Of a stretch of 64,000 nucleotides of DNA, positions 26,147-45,170 are shown in pieces. Below the pieces are notes generated by a model, which did no database searches, had not been told where the DNA came from, and saw only the letters and a program-made list of their open reading frames with translations. Position numbers and translations under genes: made by a program. The number at the start of each line of letters is the position of its first letter. Position 1 is the stretch's first letter. The DNA is from Nitrospinota bacterium (GTDB taxonomy: Bacteria > JADFOP01). Location of the stretch: the NCBI GenBank assembly GCA_022562795.1, contig JADFOP010000001.1, positions 20,691 through 84,690 on the forward strand, read 5' to 3'.

Positions 26147-27139
26147 ATGTTGCCCGTTGAACCCTTCCGGCGACTACCCTTCAATCTGCCCATCGCGCCC
26201 ATGCTTATTAATCTCCTGACAATCCTTTTTGTGTCGTGGCTCTTGCTTAACCTGGCAGCGATTGCTGTAGTCTGCTACCTCTTCTTGACGCTCCCGGCCC
26301 CGGAGCGCCCCGCCGACGGCAGGCGCCTGAAGGGTGAGTCGGTCCGATTCACAACGAGGGACGGCACCCTTCTTGCCGGAACCTTCGTTGCGGCTCCTGG
26401 TCGCAAACAGGCCCCATGCGTCATCTTCGGTCACCCCTTTGGGGGTGACCGCCACGCGGCCGCCCGTTCGGCGGATTTCTTGCCCGAGGCGGGCTTTCAC
26501 CTCTTCGCCTTCGACTTTCGCGGCCACGGTGAGAGCCAGTCGGACGACGGCTACCGGCCCGAGCGTTGGGCCACCTGGAGGGAGCGGGATGATTTACTCG
26601 CGGCAGTCTCCTACTGCTCCGATCGCCCAGACGTGGCCAGCGGTTCCATAGGGCTTTTTGGATTATCGCGGGGGGCCAACGCCGCCTTGTGCGGGGCCGC
26701 CGCTCACCCGGCCGTGCGCGCTGTGGCGGCCGAGAGCGCTTTCTCCACCCGCGAGCTCCTCAAGTGGCATGTCATGAAACGCGCGCCCATCTACGTTAAC
26801 CTCCCCTGGCTCTGGCGCCACATTCCCGACCCCCTCTTTGGCTTCACCACCGACCTCTCTTTAGGCGTCATGCGCCTACTCCTGCGCCGCCGATACCTGT
26901 CGGTGGAGCGGGCCGTGGCCACCCTCAACGGGCGGGCATGCCTGTTTATCCACGGCGAGCGGGACACCTACATCGACATTTCGCTGGCCCAGCGGCTCTT
27001 CGCCGTAGCGGGCGAGCCTAAAGCTCTATGGATCGTCCCCGGGGCCCGCCACAACGAGGGGCTCGTAGCCGCCCCAGATGCCTACCAGGAGCGGGTATCA
27101 AGCTTCTTTCGCCGACACCTCGAGGAGGCCTCGTGCTAG
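26147..27139 (+). CDS. membrane-anchored alpha/beta hydrolase
   Basis: N-terminal TM; HPFGGDRHAA; nucleophile elbow GLFGLSRGANAAL; C-terminal His context. Confidence 0.65.
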   Translation: MLPVEPFRRLPFNLPIAPMLINLLTILFVSWLLLNLAAIAVVCYLFLTLPAPERPADGRRLKGESVRFTTRDGTLLAGTFVAAPGRKQAPCVIFGHPFGGDRHAAARSADFLPEAGFHLFAFDFRGHGESQSDDGYRPERWATWRERDDLLAAVSYCSDRPDVASGSIGLFGLSRGANAALCGAAAHPAVRAVAAESAFSTRELLKWHVMKRAPIYVNLPWLWRHIPDPLFGFTTDLSLGVMRLLLRRRYLSVERAVATLNGRACLFIHGERDTYIDISLAQRLFAVAGEPKALWIVPGARHNEGLVAAPDAYQERVSSFFRRHLEEASC

Positions 27140-28952: not shown

Positions 28953-29765
28953 ATGTCCTACAAAACGTCTGGCCGGTGGCGCCGCCAAAGCCTCGTCGCC
29001 TGCATAGCCGCAATTTGTTTATCAATCTCCCTCGGGCTTTCTGAAGAGACCCGCGCTGGTGAGACCCCCGATCCACACCAGCTCATCCTCTCGGTGCAGG
29101 ACAGCTACGCCTCCGTTAGCGGCTACACGGCGACCTTCATCAAGCAGGAGCGAATAAACGGCACCCTGAAACCCCGCGAGACCATCCAGATGAAGTTTCA
29201 AAAGCCCTTCAAGGTGTATATGAAGTGGGTTGAGGGGGCCAAGGAGGGCCAAGAGATCATCTACGTGAAAGGCAAGAACAACGGCAAGGCTCTGGCCCAC
29301 CTTGGGTTCGGTGGCTTCATCGGGGGGATGCTCAACCTAATACTGCCCACATTCGCTATCACCCCCGACGGGCCGACGGCTATGAATGGTAATCGCCGCC
29401 CTATTACCGACGCGGGCATCGGGATGATGATAGAGAAGATCATCCATTACAACTCTGCGGCTAAGGCCAATGGTGACCTCAAGCTCTCCTTCAAAGGCGA
29501 GGCGGAGGTGGATGGCCGTCCTGCCTTGGTGGTGGAGCGCATCTTGCCCCATAAGGAGGGCTACCCGGCCCATCGCACCACGTACTACATCGACAAGGGG
29601 TACAACCTTCCCGTCATAGTCGTCCTCTACGATTGGGAGGACCAGATGACGGCCTACTACGAGTACTCGAGCCTCGTGCTCAACCCAGGCCTCAAACCCA
29701 TCGACTTCGAGACCCGCAACAAGGAGTATCGCTTCGGCCTGGTACCCCCGATCATCAAGGATTGA
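28953..29765 (+). CDS. secreted LolA-fold/DUF1571-like protein (hypothetical)
   Basis: Signal peptide; beta-rich pattern YTATFIKQERINGTLKPRETIQMKFQKPFKVYMKW typical of LolA-like lipid-binding folds. Confidence 0.4.
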   Translation: MSYKTSGRWRRQSLVACIAAICLSISLGLSEETRAGETPDPHQLILSVQDSYASVSGYTATFIKQERINGTLKPRETIQMKFQKPFKVYMKWVEGAKEGQEIIYVKGKNNGKALAHLGFGGFIGGMLNLILPTFAITPDGPTAMNGNRRPITDAGIGMMIEKIIHYNSAAKANGDLKLSFKGEAEVDGRPALVVERILPHKEGYPAHRTTYYIDKGYNLPVIVVLYDWEDQMTAYYEYSSLVLNPGLKPIDFETRNKEYRFGLVPPIIKD

Positions 29766-29777
29766 CCCCCACGGCCC

Positions 29778-30944: not shown

Positions 30945-31795
30945 AGGCCACGGGTCAGCGGCATAGCCTCGCGGCGGCCGACGGCGTTGACTTGGCCCTC
31001 TACGCTTACGGGCCCGAGACGGCGGAGCGGGCGGCCATCGTCCTGCACGGCATCCAAAGCCACGCGGGTTGGTTCACGGCGAGCTGCGAGGCCCTCGCGA
31101 ACGCAGGCCTCCGGGTCATCTGCCCCGACCGGCGAGGCTCCGGCGCGAGCGGCGGAAAGCGGGGCCACACCGCATCGCCGGATGTGCTCCTGGACGACCT
31201 CGGGCGGATCGTCTCATGGGTTCGGGCAGAGCGGCCCGGCCGCCCCCTTCAGGCGGTCGCGCACTCCTGGGGGGCCGTCTACGCCCTGGCCTACCAGGGG
31301 CGTGAGCCTTCGGCCTTCGAGCGCTTAAGCCTCGTGAGCCCGGGCCTCTTGCCCCGGGTCGACCTGAGCCCCACTCAGAAGGCTGCCGTCGCTCTCGGCT
31401 CCCTCATCTCACCCGAGCGCGTCTTGCCAATCCCAATAAGTGGCCCGGAGGCCTTCACGGCCAACCAGGCCAAGCGGGACGCCATCGGAGCCGATGAGGC
31501 CCGCCTCAAGTACGCCACGCTCCGCTTCTTTTCCTCTGCCTGGCGGCTTCGCCGTCGGGCCTCAGCCGCCGCACGCCGCACCGAGGCCCCCATGACCGTC
31601 TTTTTGGCAGGCACCGATACCATCATCGACACCGAGGCGACCCGGAGGTTTTTCTACGGGTGCGGCGAGGGAGTCCGGGTGGAAACCTTCGATACGGCCC
31701 ACCATACCCTGGAGTTCGAGGACGACCCGGTCGCCTTTCTCGACTCCCTGGTTCTGTGGTGCCTGGCCCCGCCGGGCCGAGAGGTGTCCCTGTGA
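30941..31795 (+). CDS. alpha/beta hydrolase (lysophospholipase/monoglyceride lipase-like)
   Basis: IVLHGIQSHAGWF, nucleophile elbow AHSWGAVYAL, C-terminal DTAHHTLEFE; ATG overlaps upstream stop (ATGA), GAGGAGGTGGGGG RBS. Confidence 0.7.
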   Translation: MKATGQRHSLAAADGVDLALYAYGPETAERAAIVLHGIQSHAGWFTASCEALANAGLRVICPDRRGSGASGGKRGHTASPDVLLDDLGRIVSWVRAERPGRPLQAVAHSWGAVYALAYQGREPSAFERLSLVSPGLLPRVDLSPTQKAAVALGSLISPERVLPIPISGPEAFTANQAKRDAIGADEARLKYATLRFFSSAWRLRRRASAAARRTEAPMTVFLAGTDTIIDTEATRRFFYGCGEGVRVETFDTAHHTLEFEDDPVAFLDSLVLWCLAPPGREVSL

Positions 31796-32721
31796 TCTGC
31801 ATCACCGGTGCGGCGGGCTACATTGGCAGCCACGCCGCTTTGGTCCTTGCCGATCGCGGCGCGGCTCTGCGTGCCTTCGTTAGACCCACGGCGGCGGCCG
31901 GGGAGAGAGCCTTTCTTCAATCGCACGGCGCCGAGATTGTCCTGGGGGAGGCGGCCGACCCCCAGGCCATGGAGCGGGCGTGCGCGGGATGCCGGGCAGT
32001 CCTCCACTGTGTGGGGGGCATGCATCCGCCCAGAGACGGCGGCTTCCGCTCCCTCCACGAGGGGCCCGCCGAGGCCCTGGCGGAGGCCGCACAACGGACA
32101 GGCGTAGAGAGCATCGTCTTGGTCTCGGTCGTCGGCACCGCGTTAGAGGCCGACACCGCCTACCACCGGACCAAGGCTCGCGCCGAGGAGATCCTTCGCT
32201 CCGGTGCTTGGGAGACAACCGTAGTGCGGCCATCCCTCGTCTACGGCCGGGGCGGAGGGCTTAGGGATAGCAGGTTCATGGTGCGCTTGGCTGCCCACCT
32301 GCATAGCGGTCGTCCCTTTCCGCTGCCGGGCGGCGGCCAGAGCCTCATCCAGCCCATCTTTATGGATGACTTGAGCCGGGCTTTGGCCCTAAGCGCCGCC
32401 GAGGGTGTGGGGGCGGGTCGCACCGTCGAATTGGGTGGACCCGAGCGGATGACCCTTAGGGCTTGGGTGGAGCGGCTGGCGGCGGTCCTCGGCGTTCGTC
32501 CCAGGCTGCTTCCTCTGCCCCAGGCTATTGGGTTGGCCCTTGCCGCCTGCGCGGAACGCCTATTCTCCACTCCACCCATTACGGTTGACCAGGTTCGTCT
32601 CATGGGCCACAATTTCATAGCACCTCTCGACGGCATCGAGGCGACCTACGGATTCGCCCCAACGAAGCCTGCCGAGGGGCTGGAGAAATCCTACAGGGCG
32701 ATTGCCGACGAGGACTCATAG
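31792..32721 (+). CDS. NAD(P)-binding epimerase/dehydratase (atypical SDR, NmrA-like)
   Basis: ITGAAGYIGSH Rossmann motif; GTG overlaps upstream stop (GTGA). Confidence 0.7.
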   Translation: MICITGAAGYIGSHAALVLADRGAALRAFVRPTAAAGERAFLQSHGAEIVLGEAADPQAMERACAGCRAVLHCVGGMHPPRDGGFRSLHEGPAEALAEAAQRTGVESIVLVSVVGTALEADTAYHRTKARAEEILRSGAWETTVVRPSLVYGRGGGLRDSRFMVRLAAHLHSGRPFPLPGGGQSLIQPIFMDDLSRALALSAAEGVGAGRTVELGGPERMTLRAWVERLAAVLGVRPRLLPLPQAIGLALAACAERLFSTPPITVDQVRLMGHNFIAPLDGIEATYGFAPTKPAEGLEKSYRAIADEDS

Positions 32722-32732
32722 AGGGAGACGCC

Positions 32733-33926
32733 GTGCGACGGCCCAGTACGCTTCCACCGTTGTCCCCATGGACCCTCCTGCTCTGTGGGCTCACCCTACT
32801 TATGGGTGGCTGCCAGGGAATCCCCAGCTATCTGTCGCCCACGGGGCGTTTCTCCAAGCCTCCGCGCATCATCGAGGCCCACTCAACGGAGACCGATGAC
32901 GGCTGGACCCTGGCGCTCAAGCGGTACCGGCGGGCGGGAAACACTGGGCTCCTCGGGCCCGTGGTGCTATGCCACGGCTTCTCCACGAACGGGTTCTTTT
33001 GGGACCTCGACGAGGCCCATAGCCTTGCCCGCTACCTGGCCGACCGCGACTTCGACGTATGGGTAGTGTCCCTCCGGGGAGCGGGCGCCAGCACGAAGCC
33101 TGGGTTCAGCGCCATCAAAGGCATAATCACCACGCGTCTGGCCGATCTGCCGGCCACCATCTCGCGGTCCACCCTCGACCCCAAAAAGTTCAACTGGACG
33201 GTGGACGACTATATCGACCACGATGTGCCCGCCATCATCTCCTACGTGACCGGGGCCACAGGCCGGCCGAAGCTATGGTGGGTCGGCCACTCGATGGGGG
33301 GGATGATCCTCTTCGCCCACCTTGAGCGGGTGGACGAGGCCCGTGTGGCGGGCTTCGTGGCTGTGGCCAGCCCTATGGCCATACCCCAGCCGCCCAACGA
33401 CATCCTTCAGGGCATCCTCAAGCAGTCCTGGTTGCTGAAGCTCTCGGCCTTGGCTGTTAATGCAACGCTCCCCGCGAAGCTCGCCTCGCCCCTGGGCGGA
33501 GCGGTGCAGACGCCCCTTGACGCCCTCTTCTACAACCGCGACAACATGGATCGGGCCACCATCACCAGGCAATTCTTTATCGGGGTGGAAGATATCTCGA
33601 CGGCCGTCCTCGACCAGTTCAACCAAATGATTCGAACGGGCGAGTTCAAGCGGGCCGACGGCTCCTACAACTACACGAGGAACCTCGGCAAGGTCACGGT
33701 TCCGGTGCTGCTGGTGTCGGGCCAGGTGGACAACCTCGCTCCGCCCGAGGTCGTCCGCTTCGCTTACGATCAGGTGTCGAGCACGGATAAGACCTACCGA
33801 ATGTTCGGCCGCATCAACGGCTACCGGGCCAACTACGGCCACAACGACCTCGTGCTCGGCATACGCGCCCGAGACGAGGTCTTCCCCCTCATCGCCGACT
33901 GGCTCACCGAGAGGGCCGGCCCCTAG
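32733..33926 (+). CDS. alpha/beta hydrolase lipoprotein
   Basis: Lipobox LLMGGCQG; nucleophile elbow GHSMGGMI; C-terminal YGHNDLV. Confidence 0.7.
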   Translation: MRRPSTLPPLSPWTLLLCGLTLLMGGCQGIPSYLSPTGRFSKPPRIIEAHSTETDDGWTLALKRYRRAGNTGLLGPVVLCHGFSTNGFFWDLDEAHSLARYLADRDFDVWVVSLRGAGASTKPGFSAIKGIITTRLADLPATISRSTLDPKKFNWTVDDYIDHDVPAIISYVTGATGRPKLWWVGHSMGGMILFAHLERVDEARVAGFVAVASPMAIPQPPNDILQGILKQSWLLKLSALAVNATLPAKLASPLGGAVQTPLDALFYNRDNMDRATITRQFFIGVEDISTAVLDQFNQMIRTGEFKRADGSYNYTRNLGKVTVPVLLVSGQVDNLAPPEVVRFAYDQVSSTDKTYRMFGRINGYRANYGHNDLVLGIRARDEVFPLIADWLTERAGP

Positions 33927-34027
33927 ACGGCCGTAGCGGGATCTTTAAGTACCACGGGCAATGATGTAGATTGGGAATCTCGCAGGTTATAGGGCGGAAC
34001 TAACCTTCATTAATAGGAGGGCGGAAA

Positions 34028-34204
34028 ATGGCGTTGGTAGTCAATTGCAGGGACGTTGGGGCGGATTGTGATTTTGAGGCCCGCGCGGATACTGAAGAAG
34101 AGCTTTTTAAAATTCTCACTGAACACGCCAAAAGTGGCCATGGGATGGAGGACATTCCGCCGGAGCTCGTCGAAAGAGTACGGGCTGTCATCCGCGTGGA
34201 ATAG
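34028..34204 (+). CDS. DUF1059 small metal-binding protein (58 aa)
   Basis: MALVVNCRDVGADCDFEARADTEEELFKILTEHAKSGHGMEDIPPELVERVRAVIRVE matches DUF1059 consensus; AGGAGG RBS 9 nt upstream; below the 60-aa ORF-track cutoff. Confidence 0.65.
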   Translation: MALVVNCRDVGADCDFEARADTEEELFKILTEHAKSGHGMEDIPPELVERVRAVIRVE

Positions 34205-34272
34205 CGTTAGCTAGTCTGGCTTCCAGCTCCCTGGAGGCTTAATTCGGGTGAGCTGGGGCCGCGTCCGCCCCT

Positions 34273-34659
34273 TCATCCAACCGCTACGGCCTGGGCCACT
34301 GCCATGTCGCCCTCGTGGGCCAATGAGACCAGGACGGTTTGGCCGCCGAGGCCCTCGAGATGGGCCTGGGCGGCGCCCCTAAGCGTGCAGACCGGTCGTC
34401 CGTAGTCGTCGGCGGTGACTTCGACGTCGCGCCAGCCGACCCCCCGGGCCCACCCGGTCCCGAGAGCCTTGAAGACCGCTTCCTTCGCGGCGAAGCGGGC
34501 CGCGAGGTGCCGGGCAGGGTCGGCCCGCCCGGAGCACTCGTTCCTCTCACGGTGGGTGAATACACGCTTTAAGAAGCGCTCGCCGTGGCGGTCTATAGCC
34601 CTTCGGAATCGCTCGATCCCCACCATATCGATCCCGGTGCCCACCACGGCTCCTCGCAT
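34273..34659 (-). CDS. acpS: holo-[acyl-carrier-protein] synthase
   Basis: GIDMVGIERF...HLAARFAAKEAVFKALG AcpS motifs; ATG overlaps GT2 stop (TGATG). Confidence 0.8.
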   Translation of the reverse strand: MRGAVVGTGIDMVGIERFRRAIDRHGERFLKRVFTHRERNECSGRADPARHLAARFAAKEAVFKALGTGWARGVGWRDVEVTADDYGRPVCTLRGAAQAHLEGLGGQTVLVSLAHEGDMAVAQAVAVG

Positions 34660-35798
34660 CAGCCCGCCTCCGGCCGGTAGAGGCGGCCACGCCATACTAC
34701 CGCCCCACCCATGGCGCAAACCCAGGCCACGTTGGCCATCAGGCCAACCAACACTAGGCTCGCCAGTGGGCTTGCCAGTGAGGCGTAGGGACTCATCCCC
34801 TGAAGCCGGTAGCTTCGCCAAAGGGTGGCCGAAAGAAGCCCGCAGGTGGTGGCGGCGACGACCCACGTGAGGCCACCTCCCGCCACGAGCCAGACGAAGG
34901 GCCACAAGCCCCCGAAGAAAGCCTGAAGTAAGCCGCTGATAGCCGGTTGCGCCCTGCGCTCGAAGAGGTGTACGAAGATGCGGAGCCAGCCGGCCCAGAG
35001 ATCGCCAAGGGAGGTGTACATGCGCGTTGTCACCATGGCCGTGCCATAACCTAGGAAGAACCGCCGCTGGCTCTTCTTCAATGCTCTGGCCATGGCGATG
35101 TCCTCCAGGAGGGCTCCGCGGCACTCGTTGTGGCCCCCGATAGCTAAATAGGCCTCACGCCGGACGAGGAAATACTGGCCGCTGGCGAAGACGGTCGGGT
35201 CGGAGGGGTCGTTGACTCGGAGGGCCGGGTACCAGAGCACGCAGACCCCGCCCAGCATGGGCTGCACCACCTGCTCCCAGAAGGAGCGGGCTTCGAGCCT
35301 GGGTAGGAGGCTCAAGGCGTCGAGCTTGTGCTCCTCGGCGAAGGCCAGCGCTGAGGCGAGGCTTCCGGGGGCGTGGGTGGAGTCGGCGTCGGTGAAGAGC
35401 AGCCAGGGTTGGGTTGACGCCTCGTAGCCCACGCGGCAGGCGTTGTTCTTGCCCGTCCAGCCCTCCGGGAGCCCTTCTGTGGCTAGGAGCCGCAAGCGGG
35501 GTTCTTCTGAGGCCAGGGCTCTCACCACCCTGGCGGTCCCGTCGGTCGAGCGGTCGTCCACGACAAGAATCTCCGCCGGGGGGGCGGATTGAGCGAGCAG
35601 GGAGGTGAGGCAGTGAGCGATGTTGGCCTCCTCGTCTCTCGCCGGGACAATGACGCTTACGGGCAGTTCGCCCTCAGAATCCGGGTCGGGGGTGAGGAAC
35701 GGGTCGCGGCGAGGGGCGACGAAAGTCTCTCGAAGCCTGCTCATCCAGACGAGCCCGACAAAGGCGAGAGAGAGAAAGACGAAGAGAGCCCAGAGCAC
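34659..35798 (-). CDS. family 2 glycosyltransferase (membrane)
   Basis: VSVIVPARDEE...ILVVDDRSTDGT GT-A DxD context; N-terminal TM and C-terminal TM helices. Confidence 0.75.
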   Translation of the reverse strand: MLWALFVFLSLAFVGLVWMSRLRETFVAPRRDPFLTPDPDSEGELPVSVIVPARDEEANIAHCLTSLLAQSAPPAEILVVDDRSTDGTARVVRALASEEPRLRLLATEGLPEGWTGKNNACRVGYEASTQPWLLFTDADSTHAPGSLASALAFAEEHKLDALSLLPRLEARSFWEQVVQPMLGGVCVLWYPALRVNDPSDPTVFASGQYFLVRREAYLAIGGHNECRGALLEDIAMARALKKSQRRFFLGYGTAMVTTRMYTSLGDLWAGWLRIFVHLFERRAQPAISGLLQAFFGGLWPFVWLVAGGGLTWVVAATTCGLLSATLWRSYRLQGMSPYASLASPLASLVLVGLMANVAWVCAMGGAVVWRGRLYRPEAG

Positions 35799-37106
35799 CT
35801 AGGAGTCCTCGGCGGCCGCCAGGGCCAAAACAACGCAGTGGCCTCCAAGGCCCCGGGAGATGGACAGGGCGAGGTCGAAGGGGTGGGGCCGGGCGGCGCC
35901 TGCCACCACATCGAGGTCGCAGGCCGGATCGGACTCGGTGTAGTTGATGGTGGGCGGGACGGTCTGGTCGCTCAGTGCCGCGAGGGAGATGACCGCCTCG
36001 ATTGTGCCGCTGGCGGCCATTGTGTGACCCATCATGCTCTTGGTAGAGCTGACCGGCACCCGGCCGACGCATGCCCCGAGAGCCAGCGTGATGCCTGCCG
36101 CTTCGGTGGCGTCGCTGGCGACGGTTGCGTTGCCGTGGGCGTTAATGTAGCCGACCTCCTCGGGCTGGCGGCCTGCATCGGCGAGGGCCTGACCGATGGC
36201 CCGTGCTACCTCGGCTCCGTCTGCTCCGAGCTCGATGAGCCCCGTATCGGCGGTGGCACATCCGTAGCCCACCACTTCGCCGTAGATGCGCGCCCGGCGG
36301 GCGCGGGCGTGCTCCCATTCTTCGAGGACGAGGGCGCCCGCCCCCTCGGCTGCAACCGTTCCTCGGCGGCGGGCGTCGAAAGGCCGGCAAACGGTCTCCG
36401 GAGGCTCGTCATTGCTCGGGGCAAGCAGCCCCAGCCGCCAGTAGTCGAGCATCTCCTTGCCGTGGATGAGGGAATCGTAGGCCCCGGCAACTGCCACGAT
36501 ACACCGGCCGGTCTCAATAGCCTTGGCCGCCTCGCCGACGCTTTGAGCGCCTGAGACCCCGGCGTTGACGATGTTCATGTTCGGCCCCTGAGCGTTGACT
36601 GCGATGGAAGTGAACGACAGCGCGTTGTTGGGCAGCACCGTAAGAAGCCACAGCGGGTTTATTTTCTCCAGCACCTTATCCCCGAAGGCCTTGATGTCCA
36701 CCTCTCCTTCGGGCCCCAGGGTATCGGACACGGCGGGGAAGAAGTCCTCGGTGTCGGTCATCTTCCCCCCGCCGGCGCCGATGTATACCCCGGTCCGAAC
36801 CGGGTCGACCTCACCAACATCAAGGCCGCTGTCGGCCCAGGCCAAGGATGTGGAGGCGACGCCTAACTGGACTGAACGGCGCATCAGCTTAAGCGCCTTG
36901 CGGTCGATGTGCTGCCGGGGGTTGAAGTCCTTGACCTCCGCTCCTATGCGCACCGGGAAGGTCGAGGCGTCGTAGCTAGAGACCTCGGCGACACCCGAGA
37001 CGCCCTCGCAGCAGGCGGACCAGACGGCGTCGAGGCCAGTGCCTATGGGGGTGATGAGCCCCACGCCGGTTACGGCCACCCGTCGAGCGCTTCGGCCCCT
37101 AGCCAC
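35799..37106 (-). CDS. beta-ketoacyl-ACP synthase (KAS I/II)
   Basis: VAVTGVGLITPIG N-terminus, active-site Cys and His/His motifs (AHGNAT...GHTMAASG). Confidence 0.85.
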   Translation of the reverse strand: MARGRSARRVAVTGVGLITPIGTGLDAVWSACCEGVSGVAEVSSYDASTFPVRIGAEVKDFNPRQHIDRKALKLMRRSVQLGVASTSLAWADSGLDVGEVDPVRTGVYIGAGGGKMTDTEDFFPAVSDTLGPEGEVDIKAFGDKVLEKINPLWLLTVLPNNALSFTSIAVNAQGPNMNIVNAGVSGAQSVGEAAKAIETGRCIVAVAGAYDSLIHGKEMLDYWRLGLLAPSNDEPPETVCRPFDARRRGTVAAEGAGALVLEEWEHARARRARIYGEVVGYGCATADTGLIELGADGAEVARAIGQALADAGRQPEEVGYINAHGNATVASDATEAAGITLALGACVGRVPVSSTKSMMGHTMAASGTIEAVISLAALSDQTVPPTINYTESDPACDLDVVAGAARPHPFDLALSISRGLGGHCVVLALAAAEDS

Positions 37107-38088
37107 TTGCTGTTACCTCCTCGGCTTCGAAGCGGGCCCGCCAGAGGGCCTCCCGCGCCTCGGCAAGGACAGGGGGGACTGTGGCCGGCTCGAGCCTGTA
37201 TAGCGCCAGGCAGCTAACAGCCTTCTCGCCTTCTACGGTTCCTGCGAGGGCGAGTTCCGCCTCCTCCTCGTCCCAGCGGCGGACCTTCGCTTCCATTCGA
37301 AGGAGGTCGCCCGGCTGGAGGAAACGGCGAAATTGGATGCTTCTGACCTCCCGTAGTGTCGCTCGCCGGGGCGGATCGGGCGATTCCGACCGACCCCGCT
37401 CAAGCAGGCATAGTCCCACTTGGCTCAGGGCTTCAGCCATGATGGTTCCCGGCATCACCGGTCGCTTGGGGAAGTGGTCGTCCAGGATCGACTCTATACG
37501 CGTTACGGCCTTGACGGCCACAAGCCGCGTCCCCGGCTCCCAGGCCACGACCCGGTCCACCAGGGGGTAAGGCCAAAGCTGCCCCGCCAGGAAGGGCCAG
37601 CGCTCCTCCAACCCATCGGCGCTCCAGACGGCGTCGGCATCAGGTTCCTCGCCGCAAAGGAACCGGTATCGGGCTCTGACGAGGGCCTCGTCCTCCAGCG
37701 CCTCGATGGGGACGTAGGCGCAGGTGCCGTTCTCGAGGGTGGCGATGACTCGGCCGTCTACGAGGGCCCGGCCGCTACAGAGAGCGCCTTCCTCGTTCAT
37801 GGAGTGGATGTCGGCCTCGATCCGAAGCTGGTCGCCCGGGCGGGCCCAGCCGTCGAAGGACATCTTGCCGGTTGTGACGGCGATTGGCTTGACCCGAAAC
37901 TCCATAGAGACGATGACGAGCCAGGAGATGCAGTGGGCGATGGACTCGGCAGCATGGGCCAGGGGCAGGAGTGGACAGCCCGGGGTTAGCTCGACTAAAC
38001 CCGGCTCGCTCATCGCGACGTTCTTCACCCCAACGGCCCGTTTGCCCGGGACCACCTCGAGAAGGCGATCGACGAAGAGAAAGGGCAT
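37099..38088 (-). CDS. tandem hot-dog fold (FabA/FabZ-like) 3-hydroxyacyl-ACP dehydratase
   Basis: Two hot-dog domains (MPFLFVDRLLEV... and ...DHFPKRPVMPGTIMAEALSQV). Confidence 0.6.
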   Translation of the reverse strand: MPFLFVDRLLEVVPGKRAVGVKNVAMSEPGLVELTPGCPLLPLAHAAESIAHCISWLVIVSMEFRVKPIAVTTGKMSFDGWARPGDQLRIEADIHSMNEEGALCSGRALVDGRVIATLENGTCAYVPIEALEDEALVRARYRFLCGEEPDADAVWSADGLEERWPFLAGQLWPYPLVDRVVAWEPGTRLVAVKAVTRIESILDDHFPKRPVMPGTIMAEALSQVGLCLLERGRSESPDPPRRATLREVRSIQFRRFLQPGDLLRMEAKVRRWDEEEAELALAGTVEGEKAVSCLALYRLEPATVPPVLAEAREALWRARFEAEEVTASG

Positions 38089-38093
38089 GGTCC

Positions 38094-38558
38094 TTAGCGG
38101 AGAATGGTGGGTGGCTCGCCTGAGAGCACCCCTCTGAGAAGCCCGCGCCAGCCAGAGGCGAGCGGATCGTCAACCACCCCGTCAAAGCGGTACTTAAGGC
38201 GCGCCCGGACGGCCGTCTCCCCCTGGAGAGTCGCTTCGGCCTCGATGACGGCGGCGTCCCGACTGGCTTCCACGACGACGACCGAGTAGTTCAGCACTTG
38301 GCCGGGGCGTGCTGTCTTTAAGAAGGTCGCCTCCCCCACCGCCTCGAGGATCGGGTGGCGTGCTCCCGCCTCCGCCAGCACCATCTCGGCCAAGGTGCAT
38401 AGTCCGTGGAGGGCGATGGGGCCCGGCAGGGCCGGATCGGTGGGCGAGCCCTCCGGCACCGGGCAGTCTGCGGCGCTCACCGCCTTGAGGCCCGTTCCTC
38501 CACGACCCGGCTCTATGCTTATCACGCGATCGAGCACCCTGAGGATCCCTCCTCCCAC
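38094..38558 (-). CDS. hot-dog fold dehydratase/thioesterase-like protein
   Basis: VLDRVISIEPG...ALHGLCTLAEMV hot-dog core. Confidence 0.5.
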   Translation of the reverse strand: MGGGILRVLDRVISIEPGRGGTGLKAVSAADCPVPEGSPTDPALPGPIALHGLCTLAEMVLAEAGARHPILEAVGEATFLKTARPGQVLNYSVVVVEASRDAAVIEAEATLQGETAVRARLKYRFDGVVDDPLASGWRGLLRGVLSGEPPTILR

Positions 38559-38696
38559 GGGAATTCAAGTATAGCCCACCGTTCGGGCCCTAGCAACCGC
38601 CCTCCTCCCTCGGTTTAAGCAGGGGGAGGATGAGGAGGCCCTTGAGTGGGGGGTGCAATCCTGTGTGGAGGTTCGATGGGTCGTCCGTCGCGAGGG

Positions 38697-39287
38697 TCAT
38701 TGAGGCTTTTCGGCCTTACCTCCCCGTTCCATCTCATCCAGGATCTCTTCGATCCTGGCCTGCAGCGCCTCAGCCTCCACCTGAATTTCAGGGCCGGCCT
38801 GCGCCCTAAGAGCCCCCAGCGTTATGTACGTGAGTCTGAGGCTACGGGACAATTCGTTTTGGCGGGCGTCCTCAGCCCGGCGATTCAAAGACCCCATCTG
38901 GCCCGAGAGCTGCTCGAGCGTCGCCCGGGTCTGCGTCTGCCCCTCATTCAGAGCTCGCAGCTCGGCCTCGGGCTTCGGCGGGCGAAAAAATAAGAAGGCA
39001 AAGGCCAGCAGCGCTATGAGGGATAATCCGATCGATAAATAGCCAAGGGTGTTGAATTCGAGACGAAGGGCGGGGCTGACATCTTCCAGGCTCGGGACCC
39101 GAGGCTTCGTGGCCGCGGGGTTTTCAGCGGGAGGGGCCTGGCGGGCCCTTTGGTAGAAAGCCCCCAGGCGCTCGGCCCGACGCTCTCGTTCCTCGGCGCT
39201 TTCCTCATCGGACTCATCACCAGGCAGATGTTTGAGCGCTTTGGCCATCGCTGCTACCCTCTCAGGCCCTGCCCGCAAGTCTATCAT
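38697..39287 (-). CDS. membrane protein with coiled-coil (hypothetical)
   Basis: Single TM (LGYLSIGLSLIALLAFAFLFF) then Q/E/R-rich helix; start uncertain (ORF track to 39401 would overlap the divergent Cys-rich gene). Confidence 0.35.
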   Translation of the reverse strand: MIDLRAGPERVAAMAKALKHLPGDESDEESAEERERRAERLGAFYQRARQAPPAENPAATKPRVPSLEDVSPALRLEFNTLGYLSIGLSLIALLAFAFLFFRPPKPEAELRALNEGQTQTRATLEQLSGQMGSLNRRAEDARQNELSRSLRLTYITLGALRAQAGPEIQVEAEALQARIEEILDEMERGGKAEKPQ

Positions 39288-39358
39288 GCCACCGGGCCAT
39301 GTGGAAGCTGCTTCCGAGCACCGCTTGACAGAGCCGAAGGGCCGCGATACCGTACGCG

Positions 39359-40009
39359 ATGATGACGCCCAAGGACGAGCCCCCAATGGCATACCATCCA
39401 TTTGAACAACCAGGTCGGCCCATTACGCTGGGCGCACATCTGGAGAGCGCGCCTCACCTGGCCGAGGGTCCTCCTGCCTGCCCCCTTTGTAGGACGGTCA
39501 TTGACCTTGAGGCGCTCGAGCACTCCGTAAAGGCCAGGCGTAGTCGAGCCTCTCCCGATGAACCGATCACCTACCACCTCTCTTGCTCAATGCCCTGCTT
39601 CAACGAGGGCTGCCCGGTCTACGTTACGCTGGAGGTCACCCTCTCCGATGAGGAATACGACGCCTGGGGCCAGCTGCAAAACAAGCGGCTAGACTACACT
39701 CTCTTTCGCGACGGCCGCCCCATTACCATCGAAGCCGAAGCCGACGCATCGACAACGGCTCCGCCTCCCTGCCGCTGCCCGGCCTGTAAGTGCGAGCTCG
39801 ATCTTGCGAGCCTCATCCCGCAGTCGGAGATCCTCATCTCAGGCGCCCCCATACCGCAATCGGAAGGGCCCCCTCAAAACCGGGTGACAGCCTACACGCG
39901 CTGCCCCCAGTGTGGCATAAACTTGACGTGCGCCTGCTTCGTCCCTAACGAGGAGCTCGGCGACCTGCGGCCCCCCGGCTCACCCGGTCCGGGAGATCAC
40001 TCTCAGTAG
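39359..40009 (+). CDS. cysteine-rich hypothetical protein (multiple CxxC)
   Basis: CPLC, CSMPC...C, CRCPACKC, CPQCGINLTCAC clusters. Confidence 0.4.
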   Translation: MMTPKDEPPMAYHPFEQPGRPITLGAHLESAPHLAEGPPACPLCRTVIDLEALEHSVKARRSRASPDEPITYHLSCSMPCFNEGCPVYVTLEVTLSDEEYDAWGQLQNKRLDYTLFRDGRPITIEAEADASTTAPPPCRCPACKCELDLASLIPQSEILISGAPIPQSEGPPQNRVTAYTRCPQCGINLTCACFVPNEELGDLRPPGSPGPGDHSQ

Positions 40010-40818
40010 ACCTCGCAGGCCACCCCTGTGCTCTCTTGACACCAACCGGCTATGGCGTCGAGACGGTCCCTAGGGACTATCTTTAGTTGAGTGTCGGCGG
40101 GAATACGGTCCAGCGTGTAAAGCTGGACGGCGAGGGGACGAATCTGCTCCACCTTATCAATCCAGGCGGCAACAATATCGTCGGTGGTGTTGTCGACCCG
40201 CCCCTGGACGAACATGCTCTGCACTATGCAGTCGGTCAGGCCGGAAATGTGGGCGATCATCCGTTGGAGGTCGAAGGGACGGTGGGGTAGATTGACAGCT
40301 TGGATGGTCTCCGGGTCGCCGGCGTCAAGCTTCACCTGCCTTTCATCCAGGCGATTGAGCGCCTCGAGGACTTCGGGGCGATGGATGGTCGAGGCACTGG
40401 TGAGTATCGAGAGCTTTACCTCCGGCGCCAGGCGGTCTCGGACGGCGGCCACAACGTCAACGAGCTCGGAGAACTCGGGGTGGAGGGTCGGCTCGCCGTT
40501 GCCCGCAAAGGTGAGGCTGTCGATGCGCGTTCCGTCGGCCGCCAGCCCCTCGAGGGCGTCTTCCAGGGCCGCACCGACCGCCTCGACGGTCGGGAAGAGC
40601 TCGGCCGGAGCCTCACCGACATCGCCCACGTAGAATCCTGTCCAGCCAAACTGGCAGTAGGGACAATTAAAGGAGCATAGTTTGACGTCGAGCGGCAGGG
40701 GGTTAATGCCCAGCGAGGCCCCCAAGCGCCGGGAACGCACGGGCCCGTAGATCAAGGTGGGAAAGAGGTTCCTCTGAATTAGAGAGGAGCCCTGTTGGGC
40801 CGGAAACCTTGGGTCCAT
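40003..40818 (-). CDS. radical SAM protein (COG0731-like)
   Basis: CSFNCPYC (Cx3Cx2C) preceded by YGPVRSRRLGASLGINPLP. Confidence 0.7.
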   Translation of the reverse strand: MDPRFPAQQGSSLIQRNLFPTLIYGPVRSRRLGASLGINPLPLDVKLCSFNCPYCQFGWTGFYVGDVGEAPAELFPTVEAVGAALEDALEGLAADGTRIDSLTFAGNGEPTLHPEFSELVDVVAAVRDRLAPEVKLSILTSASTIHRPEVLEALNRLDERQVKLDAGDPETIQAVNLPHRPFDLQRMIAHISGLTDCIVQSMFVQGRVDNTTDDIVAAWIDKVEQIRPLAVQLYTLDRIPADTQLKIVPRDRLDAIAGWCQESTGVACEVY

Positions 40819-41365
40819 AGGTGCCTACTCCCATTCCACGCAGATAGTGCCATCCATCTTACACGACTGGCATCTGATTCAAAGGGTAATTATCCCACCA
40901 AAATAATCAAGATGAGAAGGGCTTTTTCCTCTCGATCCTTGATTTTTCCAATTAGGCTCCCATATTGGAATAGAATACATAACGTTGTTTTAGCAGCAAA
41001 CCAATAAGGTGTTAAGTTATGAAGAGTTACGAGGAATGTTTTGGTACGCAGACCCCACATGCGCTCCGCTTCTCTGATGGGGCCTGCATCGTGGTCTGGG
41101 CTCCCAATGACGAGCTCAGCGACCTGTCGAGCCTTGATAAGCTGGGCCAAAAGTGTCTCATGTGCAAAGATGAATACTTGTGTTTCGAGCTCTCGCGTTG
41201 CCGAGACTTCATGACGCGGCAAGAAGTGCAGGTAGCTTAAGACGTACCGCAACTTTTCTCTCTCCATAGCTCCTTTTCCTTCAATTCCATCGCAGTAAAG
41301 CACAGATTTTGGTATAATACTCTCATTCTCATCAGCCGCTCTAACTGTCAGGTCTTCCCAGGCAT

Positions 41366-41941
41366 GTGTCGCGGGGACCAACGATGGCCTCTATTTTGGG
41401 TTCAGTGCTTTTCTATCTTATTGTTACCGTGGCTCTGCTGATCATGATCCTGTACGTCCTCCCCGTGGCAGGCGCCTTCTTCTTCACCGGCGGGAGCACC
41501 TTCGTTCCTACAAGCAAGCAAAAGATTGAGAAGGTCCTGGACCTTGTTCCCATGGCCCCAGGGGCGTTGGTGATTGATTTGGGATGTGGCGACGGGCGAT
41601 TTCTCTTGGCAGCCGAGCGGCGCTACGATGTGGAGGCCGTAGGGTATGATATTAATTTGACGGCCTACCTCCTCGCCCGGCTGAACATCCTGTTGCATCG
41701 AGCTCGGGCGCGTGTTTACCTCAAGAACTTTCGAAAAGTAGACCTGGGCCAGGCTGATTACATCTTCTGCTACCTCTTTCCCGACGTGCTTCCAGCCCTG
41801 AAGCGTAAATTTGACGCAGAGCTGAAGGCCGGTTGTGTGGTGGTCTCTTGTGACTACCTAATTGAGGAATGGAGGGAGCCGGAGGTCGTCTCCTACCCGG
41901 TGAATAACAAAGAGGAAAAGATATACATCTATCGCGTTTGA
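41366..41941 (+). CDS. membrane-anchored class I SAM-dependent methyltransferase
   Basis: N-terminal TM helix; VIDLGCGDGRF motif I. Confidence 0.55.
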   Translation: MSRGPTMASILGSVLFYLIVTVALLIMILYVLPVAGAFFFTGGSTFVPTSKQKIEKVLDLVPMAPGALVIDLGCGDGRFLLAAERRYDVEAVGYDINLTAYLLARLNILLHRARARVYLKNFRKVDLGQADYIFCYLFPDVLPALKRKFDAELKAGCVVVSCDYLIEEWREPEVVSYPVNNKEEKIYIYRV

Positions 41942-42219
41942 GAGTCCGAGCTGGAGTTGGCGAGGGTGGAATTGGGAGGCTCACGGACCTCAAGAAGCTT
42001 GTTAGGAGGGCCGTAACTCATTGGTCCAGGTGGTGGGAAACCCTTCCGAGTTTCCCCTCATGCCAACGCCTCCATGCGTAATTCGTCGTATTCGTCCAGT
42101 AATAAAATAGTAATCTGGGTGGTCGGAGGCAGCCCCAAAGCGCCGGATACTTTATAATCCATTGAATATCTTAACGTTAGAAAGAGTACGAAACATAAAA
42201 CAACTTTTTATAATTTCCC

Positions 42220-42249
42220 TTGACACAATCCTGAAACCGGTGGTATTAT
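42220..42249 (+). promoter_or_regulatory. sigma70-like promoter (TTGACA-18-TATTAT) ahead of a ~320-nt leader of the OFA transporter gene
   Basis: Consensus -35 at 42220-42225, -10 at 42244-42249, in an AT-rich intergenic region. Confidence 0.35.
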
Positions 42250-42564
42250 TGGAGCCCTAAGCATCCGATGCATAATCTATCCAAACTTGTGTGCCAAGTC
42301 TACGGCTAGCACCTTTAGAATGGGGTTTTTAGCTACACCAATATAGGGGGGGGTGATAAATAGTTTGTATTGGAGGAAGCCCCCCACAGCCTATTGTGAG
42401 GTTTGGTGGGCTTCGTAGCTCATAAGGGATACTCGAGTTGAAAGGGGGTGAAGAAGCAACAGAAGAAGCAACAAAGGAGAGAATAGTAGTTCAGAAGTGC
42501 TTTTTATGTAGTAGATGAAGTATTCCATGCACTCCACGAAAGAAGTTCTAGAAGGAGCGTCATA

Positions 42565-43821: not shown

Positions 43822-43858
43822 GCCAGACGCCACAACGGTGGTTTGTTCAGCAGTACCA

Positions 43859-43898: not shown

Positions 43899-43954
43899 TG
43901 TGACGTGTCCGCGGGTTTATTCGGAATAACTACAAGCCCTGCAATGTTTTTCAG

Positions 43955-45156: not shown

Positions 45157-45170
45157 GGGGGGCCTCTCAC

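What the first reader, a model, noticed from the sequence alone, without database searches (positions are those of the whole stretch)
34273..39290. Minus-strand lipid-biosynthesis-like operon: acpS - GT2 - KAS - tandem hot-dog DH - hot-dog - membrane coiled-coil protein
The genes are overlapping or abutting (TGATG at 34659; a 1-nt gap at 35798/35799; an 8-nt overlap at 37099-37106). A FabF/FabB-type KAS, a double hot-dog FabA/FabZ-like dehydratase and a further hot-dog protein are combined with a membrane GT2 and a dedicated AcpS. No ACP or ketoreductase gene is present. This resembles specialised lipid/glycolipid (aryl-polyene-, ladderane- or hopanoid-adjacent) clusters rather than core FAS II.
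Basis: partly seen in the sequence, partly recalled or inferred. Interest (0 to 1): 0.5.

Follow-up and report, generated by a model that had tools for sequence, protein, structure and literature searches.

The report
Cysteine-less ketosynthase glycolipid operon, Nitrospinota
This is a tightly packed five-gene operon built around a ketosynthase that has lost its catalytic cysteine, so it cannot be the cell's fatty-acid synthase; it looks like a stripped-down add-on that probably helps make the lipid tail of a membrane glycolipid.

Summary
The genes are real and sit at the stated coordinates. The true unit is five minus-strand genes: small hot-dog (38094-38537), tandem hot-dog dehydratase (37099-38088), KAS (35799-37106), membrane GT2 (34659-35798) and AcpS (34273-34659). 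All five are translationally coupled, conserved in order in Nitrospinota relatives, and under purifying selection (dN/dS 0.12-0.26). The upstream coiled-coil membrane protein is not conserved and is not part of the unit.

The "FabF/FabB-type KAS" is not a condensing enzyme. Gly183 replaces the catalytic Cys, while His324, Lys356 and His361 are kept. It falls in a monophyletic Cys-less "partner" (KS-beta / chain-length-factor-like) lineage (bootstrap 100/100) and carries that lineage's motif, NPLWLLTVLPNN. Elsewhere these partners sit next to a Cys-bearing KS, a long ACP and hot-dog dehydratases. One example is the Legionella and Acidobacteria clusters that end in a lipid A acyltransferase, which resemble acpXL-lpxXL.

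The tandem dehydratase has one composite FabZ-type site (Glu48 + His205). The small hot-dog lacks the catalytic His. The GT2 is a catalytically intact CruC/CruG/HpnB-like lipid glycosyltransferase, and its best homologue outside the clade (38%) lies beside a complete cassette.

Best reading: a reduced accessory lipid module, lacking its own KS-alpha and ACP, that depends on core FAS II. It is a new variant of a known kind. The product is unknown.

The parts
38094..38537 (-). HD1: small FabZ-like hot-dog protein (147 aa), catalytically degenerate; first gene of the operon
   Evidence: PF07977 at 24 bits, just above the cut-off. Aligned to FabZ, the catalytic His54 position is Gly and the Glu68 position is His, conserved in the L007 and L009 orthologues. 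dN/dS 0.26. GGGAGGAGGG lies 8 nt before the GTG at 38537, and public gene calls give 147 aa.
37099..38088 (-). DH2: tandem (double) hot-dog FabZ-type 3-hydroxyacyl-ACP dehydratase, 329 aa, with one composite active site
   Evidence: Two FabA/FabZ stretches. Glu48 (N domain) and His205-Phe206 (C domain) are invariant across 30 relatives of 23-78% identity, while the N-domain His is lost. AF2 model has pLDDT 88 and pTM 0.86 and shows two hot-dog domains; FabZ structures fit one domain at rmsd 2.2-3.3 A. dN/dS 0.16-0.19.
35799..37106 (-). KS-G: Cys-less ketosynthase of the partner (KS-beta / chain-length-factor-like) lineage, 435 aa; Gly183 replaces the catalytic Cys; His324, Lys356 and His361 are retained
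   Evidence: Residue-level alignments to solved FabF structures and to E. coli FabF. Gly is present in all ten full-length Nitrospinota-clade orthologue clusters. It shares the motif NPLWLLTVLPNN with all Cys-less partner KASs and with no Cys-bearing KAS. The split between Cys-less and Cys-bearing KASs has 100/100 bootstrap support. dN/dS 0.16-0.19.
34659..35798 (-). Membrane GT2 glycosyltransferase (379 aa) of the CruC/CruG/HpnB/GT21-like lipid-glycosylating group
   Evidence: PF00535, PF13641 and PF13506. Best NCBIfam hits are HpnB (182 bits) and CruG (159 bits), both below cut-off. Homologues at about 40% identity are named chlorobactene glucosyltransferase by JGI. D82, D86, D137-x-D139 and E232-D233 are conserved in 119 homologues; hydrophobic segments at 1-23, 304-322 and 339-369.
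34273..34659 (-). AcpS-type holo-ACP synthase (128 aa); last gene, start overlaps the GT2 stop (TGATG)
   Evidence: PF01648; NF000832 and TIGR00516 above cut-off. Junction read. dN/dS 0.12-0.17. AcpS is also embedded in related cassettes in other phyla.
38568..38596 (-). Sigma-70-like promoter match upstream of HD1 (weak evidence for the operon start)
   Evidence: TTGCTA-17-TATACT, the only match in 33800-39600, against 0.6 expected in shuffles.
28953..29765 (+). DUF1571 protein in the convergent plus-strand operon; possibly associated, not shown
   Evidence: 30% identical to the DUF1571 gene that abuts the GT2 homologue in L095.
26147..27139 (+). Alpha/beta hydrolase in the same plus-strand operon; possibly associated, not shown
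   Evidence: 24% identical (E 1e-17) to the hydrolase next to DUF1571 in L095. Similar hydrolases flank cassettes in L101, L208 and L214.

Best explanation
The operon HD1-DH2-KS-G-GT2-AcpS is a reduced derivative of a widespread specialised type II FAS-like lipid cassette. The full cassette has a dedicated long ACP, hot-dog dehydratase subunits, a Cys-bearing KS-alpha and a Cys-less KS-beta partner. This Nitrospinota clade has kept only the KS-beta partner, a fused tandem dehydratase, one extra degenerate hot-dog subunit, a lipid-type membrane GT2 and the phosphopantetheinyl transferase.

Shown:
- KS-G cannot form the acyl-enzyme intermediate, so it cannot condense by itself.
- It keeps the His-His-Lys set used for malonyl-ACP decarboxylation.
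- It belongs to the partner lineage.
- DH2 has a single FabZ-type His/Glu site built from both halves.
- The GT2 has intact catalytic motifs and transmembrane segments.
- All five genes are co-oriented, translationally coupled and under purifying selection.

Inferred: the module works as an accessory branch of core FAS II. KS-G pairs with, or acts beside, a Cys-bearing KS encoded elsewhere, which could be the housekeeping FabF or an unlinked KS-alpha. It would either decarboxylate malonyl-ACP to prime a chain or act as a chain-length-setting partner. DH2, probably together with HD1, would dehydrate the special, probably long or hydroxylated, 3-hydroxyacyl-ACP intermediates on the housekeeping ACP, which the co-expressed AcpS keeps in the holo form. 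The membrane GT2 would then glycosylate the resulting lipid, or a lipid acceptor that carries it, to give a membrane glycolipid. The product is not identified.
For: Cys to Gly with His/Lys/His retained.

Partner-lineage membership: shared motif, and a 100/100 bootstrap split in which the window clade always joins Cys-less KASs.

In 80 genome loci and 111 metagenome loci, the Cys-less partner sits beside a Cys-bearing KS, a 130-137 aa ACP and hot-dog genes.

The DH2 family is broad, and the Glu48/His205 dyad is invariant.

GT2: lipid-GT family and conserved motifs. Its best non-clade homologue, P0337 (38%), lies in L095 next to KS-alpha, a Gly-type KS-beta carrying the same insertion, two hot-dogs, AcpS, ACP and an SDR. 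L115 and L120 also pair the cassette with this GT2, and L120 adds a fatty-acyl reductase.

AcpS is embedded in cassettes of other phyla.

The same five genes in the same order occur in L007 and L009, whose flanks differ from the window's on the upstream side. dN/dS is 0.12-0.26 for all five genes. Junctions and RBS-like sites were read directly.
Against: No Cys-bearing partner KS, ACP, ketoreductase or enoyl reductase lies in the 64-kb window or within 10 kb in L007 and L009. Dependence on core FAS II is therefore assumed, not shown.

The GT2 link is rare among related cassettes: 2 of 49 metagenome loci with at least 5 kb of flank, and 1 of 3 sampled GT2 homologue contexts.

AcpS could simply be the housekeeping enzyme that happens to sit in this operon.

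Decarboxylase activity of a Gly-type KS is inferred from general KS enzymology and from retained residues, not measured. No lipid product is known. All Nitrospinota examples are close relatives (tandem dehydratase 66-95% identical), so conserved gene order within the clade carries limited weight.
Confidence: 0.45

Rival explanations
1. KS-G is a stand-alone malonyl-ACP decarboxylase. It makes acetyl-ACP to start fatty-acid synthesis, a FabH-independent initiation route analogous in outcome to KS-Q loading domains or MadA. In this reading the operon is a housekeeping FAS-initiation and ACP-activation unit with an unrelated GT2.
For: His324, Lys356 and His361 are retained while only the Cys is lost. 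The gene is under strong purifying selection. AcpS is in the same operon. No partner KS lies nearby. An anammox KS/CLF-like pair was reported to initiate synthesis by decarboxylating malonyl-ACP (preprint 10.64898/2026.05.19.726425).
Against: Every other member of the Cys-less lineage seen here is encoded beside a Cys-bearing KS. This reading does not explain the two dehydratase-type genes or the translational coupling to a lipid GT2. The module is confined to a small clade, which is odd for a core initiation function.
Confidence: 0.15
2. The operon is an anaerobic unsaturated-fatty-acid branch, analogous to FabA/FabB or to the FabZ-like/FabF-like FabN/FabO pair. DH2 would isomerise trans-2 to cis-3 enoyl-ACP and the KAS would elongate it.
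For: A dehydratase and a KAS are adjacent and translationally coupled. FabZ-type enzymes can act as isomerases in some bacteria (established knowledge, not tested here).
Against: The KAS has no catalytic Cys and cannot elongate anything by itself. The dyad is His/Glu (FabZ type), not His/Asp (FabA type). The relatives of both proteins sit in dedicated-ACP cassettes, not in core FAS.
Confidence: 0.04
3. The operon is a decaying remnant of a once complete cassette. KS-G and HD1 are non-functional relics carried along with a functional GT2 and a housekeeping AcpS.
For: KS-alpha and ACP are missing, KS-G has lost its Cys and HD1 has lost its catalytic His.
Against: dN/dS is 0.16-0.19 for KS-G and 0.26 for HD1, similar to AcpS and the GT2, at dS of about 0.5-1.4. 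The reading frames are intact and full length in three diverged genomes. His/Lys/His and the lineage motif are retained. Cys loss is ancestral to the whole partner lineage, not a recent lesion.
Confidence: 0.06
4. The operon is a full member of a named pathway suggested by the first reader: aryl polyene, ladderane or hopanoid-associated.
For: PF22818 (ApeI-like) is on record for DH2. The closest non-clade DH2 (40%) is in Candidatus Anammoxibacter. The closest non-clade KS-G (46%) is in a cluster with four B12-radical SAM genes. The best NCBIfam hit of the GT2 is HpnB.
Against: The window has no ACP, active KS, KR, adenylating enzyme, LolA/MMPL exporter, B12-radical SAM, phytoene-desaturase-like, squalene or hopene cyclase genes near the operon. 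The HpnB and CruG scores are far below cut-off. PF22818 is also on record for ordinary LpxC-FabZ fusions. L010 is not anammox Cluster I.
Confidence: 0.05

Closest known systems
acpXL-fabZXL-fabF2XL-fabF1XL-(adhA2XL)-lpxXL cluster for the very-long-chain fatty acid of lipid A (Rhizobiales; PMC5613085, PMC11901934)
   Same: Relatives of DH2 and of KS-G in Legionella, Acidobacteria and others lie in a cluster with the same gene content and order: ACP, hot-dog dehydratase, two KAS genes, lipid A late acyltransferase. One KAS has Cys-His-His. The other has Ala or Gly with His-His, like KS-G.
   Different: The window has no ACP, only the Cys-less KAS and no LpxXL-type acyltransferase. It has a lipid GT2, an AcpS and an extra degenerate hot-dog instead. 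Homology of DH2 to the rhizobial FabZXL itself was not tested, because no rhizobial sequence was available (a plasmid search found none).
KS / chain-length-factor heterodimers (type II PKS KS-alpha/KS-beta; anammox amxFabF2/amxFabFmut, preprint 10.64898/2026.05.19.726425)
   Same: KS-G has the KS fold without the catalytic Cys. It belongs to a lineage whose members are encoded next to an active KS. The solved anammox pair 9s5h_B/C is among its PDB sequence matches.
   Different: KS-G keeps both His and the Lys. The preprint states that amxFabFmut has Val or Thr at the Cys site and has lost both His, and classical CLFs carry Gln (from memory). No KS-alpha gene is adjacent here. Heterodimer formation is untested.
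FabZ (3-hydroxyacyl-ACP dehydratase)
   Same: The C-terminal domain has the HFPxxPVMPG motif and the His/Glu dyad chemistry. NF000582 scores 130.8 bits, above its cut-off of 113. FabZ structures superpose on one domain at 2.2-3.3 A.
   Different: DH2 is a tandem fusion of two hot-dogs with one composite site (Glu48 from the N half, His205 from the C half) instead of a homodimer with two sites. TIGR01750 scores below its cut-off (133.7 against 155). No solved structure matches the whole chain closely.
CruC / CruG / HpnB / HpnI and GT21 (ceramide glucosyltransferase-like) membrane GT2 enzymes that glycosylate lipid hydroxyls
   Same: Same Pfam families, the same D...D, DxD and ED motifs, and C-terminal transmembrane segments. 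Homologues at about 40% identity are labelled chlorobactene glucosyltransferase.
   Different: Scores are far below every equivalog cut-off (HpnB 182 against 379; CruG 159 against 600). No carotenoid or hopanoid genes are nearby. The acceptor is unknown.
Aryl polyene (APE) gene clusters
   Same: Both combine FAS-like KS/CLF and heteromeric hot-dog dehydratases with a GT2. This comparison rests on recalled knowledge and on the PF22818 ApeI-like hit on record.
   Different: No ACPs, active KS, KR, adenylating or thioesterase genes and no LolA/MMPL export genes are present here.

Membership tests
Core FAS II FabF/FabB (KAS II/I) | Cys-His-His catalytic triad with the acyl-accepting cysteine | tested here: not met
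   Gly183 aligns with the catalytic Cys of solved FabFs and of E. coli FabF. His324 and His361 are present.
Core FAS II FabF/FabB (KAS II/I) | Score at or above the curated FabF equivalog cut-off | tested here: not met
   TIGR03150 scores 362.4 bits against a cut-off of 493.75. NF005589 scores 349.4 against 387.
KS-beta / chain-length-factor-like partner ketosynthases | KS fold lacking the catalytic Cys, and membership of the Cys-less clade | tested here: met
   Gly183. The shared motif P(M/L)(W/F)LLxxLPN occurs only in Cys-less KASs. The Cys-less versus Cys split has 100/100 bootstrap support.
KS-beta / chain-length-factor-like partner ketosynthases | Encoded next to its Cys-bearing KS-alpha | tested here: not met
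   No second KAS lies in the 64-kb window or within 10 kb in L007 and L009. The feature is met in nearly all other loci of the lineage.
KS-beta / chain-length-factor-like partner ketosynthases | Forms a heterodimer with a KS-alpha | not testable with these tools
   Needs co-purification, or a multimer structure prediction against the genome's own FabF.
acpXL-lpxXL lipid A VLCFA cluster | Five genes present: acpXL, fabZXL, fabF1XL, fabF2XL, lpxXL (PMC5613085) | tested here: not met
   Only a dehydratase and one KAS are present. There is no ACP, no second KAS and no Lip_A_acyltrans gene near the operon.
FabZ | His/Glu catalytic dyad in the HFPxxPVMPG...E context | tested here: met
   His205 and Phe206 are invariant. 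Glu48 is invariant and is supplied by the N-terminal hot-dog.
FabZ | Single hot-dog subunit of about 140-150 aa that forms homodimers with two sites | tested here: not met
   The protein is a 329-aa tandem of two hot-dogs, and the N half lacks the His.
FabA-type dehydratase/isomerase | His/Asp dyad | tested here: not met
   The acidic residue is Glu in both halves.
AcpS-type holo-ACP synthase | Score above the curated equivalog cut-offs, and a length of about 125 aa | tested here: met
   NF000832 scores 108.9 against 107. TIGR00516 scores 91.2 against 59.8. The protein is 128 aa.
HpnB / CruG / HpnI named lipid GT2 equivalogs | Score above the curated cut-off | tested here: not met
   HpnB 182 against 379; CruG 159 against 600; HpnI 43.5 against 310.
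GT2 (inverting, DxD) glycosyltransferases | Conserved D, DxD and ED catalytic motifs | tested here: met
   D82, D86, D137-A-D139 and E232-D233 are conserved in at least 95% of 119 homologues and are present here.
Ladderane (anammox Cluster I) genes | amxACP, amxFabZ, amxFabF2 + amxFabFmut, B12-radical SAM, phytoene-dehydrogenase homologue | tested here: not met
   None of these partners is in the window. The nearby radical SAM (40003-40818) has no B12-binding domain and is absent from the relatives' loci. KS-G keeps both His, unlike amxFabFmut.
Aryl polyene cluster | ACPs, active KS, KR, adenylating enzyme, LolA/MMPL export genes | tested here: not met
   These are absent from the Pfam annotation of the operon and of the neighbouring genes scanned between 21170 and 52557 and from the homology scans of the window.

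The most novel reading that the evidence does not exclude
A KS-beta-only module that reprogrammes the cell's own fatty-acid synthase. KS-G would heterodimerise in trans with the housekeeping FabF, displacing one FabF subunit. Together with the HD1/DH2 dehydratase, it would divert AcpP-bound intermediates to a chain of different length or hydroxylation, which the co-translated GT2 turns into a clade-specific membrane glycolipid. That would be a chain-length factor acting on primary metabolism without its own synthase or carrier protein.
Probability: 0.2. Interest if true: 0.7.

Novelty: new variant of a known kind. Interest (0 to 1): 0.45.

Why it matters
Annotation pipelines call this KAS 'beta-ketoacyl-ACP synthase II' and the dehydratase 'FabZ'. 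That would wrongly suggest a second core fatty-acid synthase. The analysis shows a distinct, monophyletic family of cysteine-less partner ketosynthases that retain the decarboxylation residues. Here one survives without its catalytic partner or carrier protein, coupled instead to a lipid glycosyltransferase.

If it acts on the housekeeping FAS, it would be a simple natural example of a chain-length-factor-type protein redirecting primary lipid synthesis. It could also point to an unknown glycolipid in Nitrospinota, a phylum of marine nitrite oxidisers.

[quoted passage not shown] This can be tested directly.

Tried and rejected
It was repeated with six sequences.

2. A search for an ACP in the window, using four ACP queries against all six-frame segments, found nothing. 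A tblastn of the complete L095 cassette against the window found no second KAS, SDR or ACP.

3. An attempt to reach rhizobial FabZXL through the plasmid collection found only Streptomyces and Lactobacillales hot-dogs. Direct homology to the rhizobial proteins therefore stays untested.

4. NCBIfam gave no specific family names for the Legionella-type or L095 cassette proteins.

5. Two of the three GT2 homologue contexts examined (P0338, P0367) showed no lipid genes.

6. L010, the cluster holding the nearest KS-G relative, was tested as a possible anammox Cluster I. The solved amxFabF chains are not its best matches, so it was not filed as ladderane.

8. Literature searches found no description of this operon in Nitrospina and none of a KS/CLF pair in lipid A VLCFA clusters.

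9. The coiled-coil protein was rejected as a member because it has no homologue in L007 or L009. The radical SAM gene at 40003-40818 was rejected because it is absent from the relatives' loci.

Full report
**1. What is there**

| Gene | Coordinates | Size | Key evidence |
|---|---|---|---|
| AcpS | 34273-34659 | 128 aa | PF01648; NF000832 and TIGR00516 above cut-off |
| Membrane GT2 | 34659-35798 | 379 aa | PF00535, PF13641, PF13506 |
| KAS | 35799-37106 | 435 aa | PF00109 + PF02801 |
| Tandem FabA/FabZ-like protein (DH2) | 37099-38088 | 329 aa | Two matched stretches |
| Small FabA/FabZ-like protein (HD1) | 38094-38537 | 147 aa | PF07977 just above cut-off |

I read the junctions directly:
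- The GT2 stop and acpS start form TGATG, sharing one base.
- The KAS stop TAG is followed at once by the GT2 start GTG. The genes abut; there is no 1-nt gap.
- The DH2 stop and KAS start overlap by 8 nt.
- HD1 and DH2 are 5 nt apart.
- GGAGG-type sites precede the HD1, KAS and acpS starts.

Identical proteins occur on at least ten public metagenome contigs. Names attached to proteins that are 76-86% identical point to Nitrospinota, with one labelled Tectimicrobiota.

**2. Extent of the unit**

Two relatives, L009 (Nitrospinae bacterium AH-259-F20) and L007 (a 307-kb JGI contig), carry a tandem dehydratase that is 78% and 71% identical to the window's. Both have the same five genes in the same order. 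They share upstream neighbours with each other (AAA, DUF1015, EngB-like GTPase), but these differ from the window's upstream genes.

The coiled-coil membrane protein at 38697-39248 has no homologue in either locus. It lies about 160 bp upstream of HD1, beyond the only sigma-70-like match in the region. It is therefore a neighbour and not a member of the operon.

Nei-Gojobori dN/dS against L009 and L007 is 0.26 for HD1, 0.16-0.19 for DH2, 0.16-0.19 for the KAS, 0.15-0.25 for the GT2 and 0.12-0.17 for AcpS. All five genes are maintained by selection.

**3. The KAS is not a condensing enzyme**

His324, Lys356 and His361 are kept.

Among the 120 best homologues, all ten full-length Nitrospinota-clade clusters have Gly at this position. 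Only one other protein does, P0067 at 46% identity. The remaining 109 have Cys. The protein scores below the FabF equivalog cut-offs.

It cannot accept an acyl chain, so it cannot be the sole FabF of any organism.

**4. Which lineage the KAS belongs to**

I collected KAS genes from 80 genome loci found through DH2 and typed the triad positions. Almost every locus has a Cys-His-His KAS next to a second KAS that lacks the Cys:
- Ala or Gly with His-His in Legionella, other Gammaproteobacteria and Acidobacteria.
- Tyr/Phe/Ala-Asp-His or Thr/Ser-Glu-His in Thermodesulfobacteriota and Candidatus Anammoxibacter.

All Cys-less proteins, and none of the Cys-bearing ones, carry an insertion ending in the motif P(M/L)(W/F)LLxxLPN. 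The window protein has it as NPLWLLTVLPNN.

In a neighbour-joining analysis of 61 sequences, the split between Cys-less and Cys-bearing KASs had 100/100 bootstrap support. The window clade always joined Cys-less sequences.

The window KAS is therefore a member of a partner lineage, KS-beta or chain-length-factor-like. Two things are unusual about it: it keeps the decarboxylation residues, and it has no Cys-bearing partner gene nearby.

A 2026 preprint on anammox FabF homologues shows that such a pair forms a KS/CLF-like heterodimer that decarboxylates malonyl-ACP. In that case the mutant subunit has also lost both histidines.

**5. The dehydratases**

A full HMMER search of 1.84 billion representatives found about a hundred full-length tandem hot-dog relatives of DH2 at 24-40% identity.

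Across 30 of them, the invariant residues include Glu48 in the N-terminal half and His205-Phe206 in the C-terminal half. The N-half histidine is lost and the C-half glutamate is variable. DH2 is thus a fused pseudo-dimer with one FabZ-type site.

The AlphaFold2 model is confident (pLDDT 88, pTM 0.86) and shows two hot-dog domains. Solved FabZ structures fit one domain at 2.2-3.3 A. Whole-chain matches are only to other double hot-dogs, at high rmsd.

HD1 aligns to FabZ but has Gly at the catalytic His position and His at the Glu position. Both are conserved in the three orthologues. HD1 is probably a non-catalytic or re-purposed subunit.

**6. Context of the relatives**

- **Legionella (L072) and an acidobacterium (L029).** The order is long ACP, DH2, KAS(Cys), KAS(Ala/Gly), lipid A late acyltransferase. 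This is the gene content and order described for the acpXL-fabZXL-fabF2XL-fabF1XL-lpxXL very-long-chain fatty acid cluster of lipid A (PMC5613085 and PMC11901934). I could not test homology to the rhizobial proteins themselves.
- **Candidatus Anammoxibacter.** The closest non-clade DH2 (40%) lies here, in a larger FAS-like cluster with three KAS genes, three small hot-dogs, an ACP, an SDR and a methyltransferase.
- **L010.** The closest non-clade KS-G (P0067) lies in a cluster with KAS(Ser-Glu-His), KAS(Cys), KAS(Gly-His-His), a hot-dog, four B12-radical SAM genes, an SDR and a long ACP. This is not anammox Cluster I.
- **Metagenomes.** A scan for the motif returned 120 loci, and 111 of them carry it in a partner-type KAS. 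The recurrent cassette is hot-dog, ACP of about 132 aa, hot-dog, KS-beta, KS-alpha, often flanked by housekeeping genes.

**7. The GT2 and AcpS links**

The GT2 has the conserved D, DxD and ED motifs of its family and three hydrophobic segments. Its best named relatives are HpnB and CruG, far below cut-off. Homologues at about 40% identity are labelled chlorobactene glucosyltransferase. That places it among GT2 enzymes that glycosylate lipid hydroxyls.

Its best homologue outside the clade is P0337 (38% identity). It sits in L095 beside KS-alpha, a Gly-type KS-beta with the same insertion, two separate hot-dogs that correspond to the two halves of DH2, AcpS, a long ACP, a hexapeptide-repeat transferase and an SDR. 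A DUF1571 gene and an alpha/beta hydrolase follow.

Two metagenome loci (L115, L120) also join the cassette to this GT2, and L120 adds a fatty-acyl reductase. The link is real but uncommon: 2 of 49 cassette loci with enough flank, and 1 of 3 GT2 contexts sampled.

AcpS is embedded in cassettes of Thermodesulfobacteriota (L017, L019, L020, L023, L073) and in L095 and L131. Its presence here is therefore probably inherited with the cassette.

The window's convergent plus-strand operon contains homologues of the L095 DUF1571 gene and hydrolase. This hints at a wider system but does not show one.

**8. What is missing**

No ACP, second KAS or SDR is detectable anywhere in the 64-kb window, nor within 10 kb in L007 and L009.

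**9. Interpretation**

The sequence-level facts are firm: the identity of the five proteins, loss of the Cys, membership of the partner lineage, the single composite dehydratase site, an intact lipid-type GT2, and a compact operon under selection.

The mechanism is inferred. The module is a reduced derivative of a KS-alpha/KS-beta + ACP + dehydratase cassette that now depends on core FAS II. KS-G would act as a decarboxylating and/or chain-length-setting partner of a KS encoded elsewhere. DH2, with HD1, would process special 3-hydroxyacyl-ACPs. The GT2 would make a glycolipid from the product. I put this at 0.45.

Rivals, with my estimates:
- Stand-alone malonyl-ACP decarboxylase for chain initiation: 0.15.
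- Decaying remnant: 0.06. This is contradicted by the dN/dS values.
- Full member of the aryl polyene, ladderane or hopanoid pathways: 0.05. It fails the membership tests.
- FabA/FabB-like unsaturated fatty-acid branch: 0.04. This is nearly excluded by Gly183.

The remaining probability is for functions not considered here.

**10. Verdict**

It is wrong on the key enzyme and on the operon boundary.

It is a new variant of a known kind of system. Interest is moderate: the KS-beta-only arrangement coupled to a GT2 is unusual and testable, but the product and mechanism remain unproven.

Noticed in passing
L028-L093 (Legionella and relatives), L024-L037 (Acidobacteria, other Gammaproteobacteria); e.g. 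L072:7588-12307: The cluster ACP - tandem hot-dog - KAS(Cys-His-His) - KAS(Ala or Gly, His-His) - lipid A late acyltransferase is nearly universal in these loci. The two 'FabF' genes of this acpXL-lpxXL-like cluster look like a KS-alpha/KS-beta pair in which the partner keeps both histidines. I found no paper in the held library that describes this.
   Followed up: partly
L097-L215 (metagenome loci), e.g. L134:2570-6952, L156:897-5174: A five-gene cassette (catalytic hot-dog, ACP of about 132 aa, second hot-dog, Cys-less KS-beta, Cys KS-alpha) recurs in most of 111 metagenome loci. It is often flanked by housekeeping genes (ribosomal protein S1, seryl-tRNA synthetase, MiaA). Its function and host phyla were not determined.
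   Followed up: partly
L010:73-14178 (also L011-L013): This cluster has three KAS genes (Ser-Glu-His, Cys-His-His, Gly-His-His), a hot-dog, four B12-binding radical SAM genes, DUF362, an SDR, a 132-aa ACP and an HGD-D-type dehydratase gene. It resembles a ladderane cluster in style, but its proteins are not closest to the solved anammox FabF homologues.
   Followed up: partly
L072:7588-8001, L014:4246-4656, L010:12844-13242, L095:4630-5028: The ACPs of these cassettes are 130-137 aa long. They share a conserved C-terminal extension after the normal four-helix ACP core, for example ...IPTLFTV... Its role is unknown.
   Followed up: no
window 26147-33926 (+): A convergent plus-strand operon encodes an alpha/beta hydrolase, a GH3-family acyl-acid amido synthetase, DUF1571, an enolase-superfamily (MR_MLE) protein, a hydrolase, an NmrA/epimerase-like protein and another hydrolase. 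Its hydrolase, epimerase-like and MR_MLE genes recur downstream of the operon in L007. Its DUF1571 and hydrolase have homologues beside the GT2 in L095. It may be linked to the lipid module.
   Followed up: partly
window 34028-34204 (+): A small DUF1059 gene (58 aa, as called on the identical public contigs) lies between acpS and the convergent hydrolase gene. A DUF1059 gene also lies near the GT2 homologue in L096.
   Followed up: no
window 39359-46487: Upstream of the operon, the window differs from its relatives. It has a Cys-rich 207-216 aa protein with no family match, a small radical SAM protein (40003-40818, with only weak viperin-like and other rSAM hits), a methyltransferase, an MFS transporter, two proteins with no family match and a ThiF-like protein. 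G+C drops to about 0.55 at 40-44 kb against 0.62-0.66 nearby. This could be an insertion.
   Followed up: no
L120:3057-4154 and L120:1356-2561: In one metagenome locus, a fatty-acyl reductase (NAD_binding_4) follows the KS pair and is followed in turn by the GT2 homologue. This suggests an alkyl or fatty-alcohol glycoside product for that version of the cassette.
   Followed up: no
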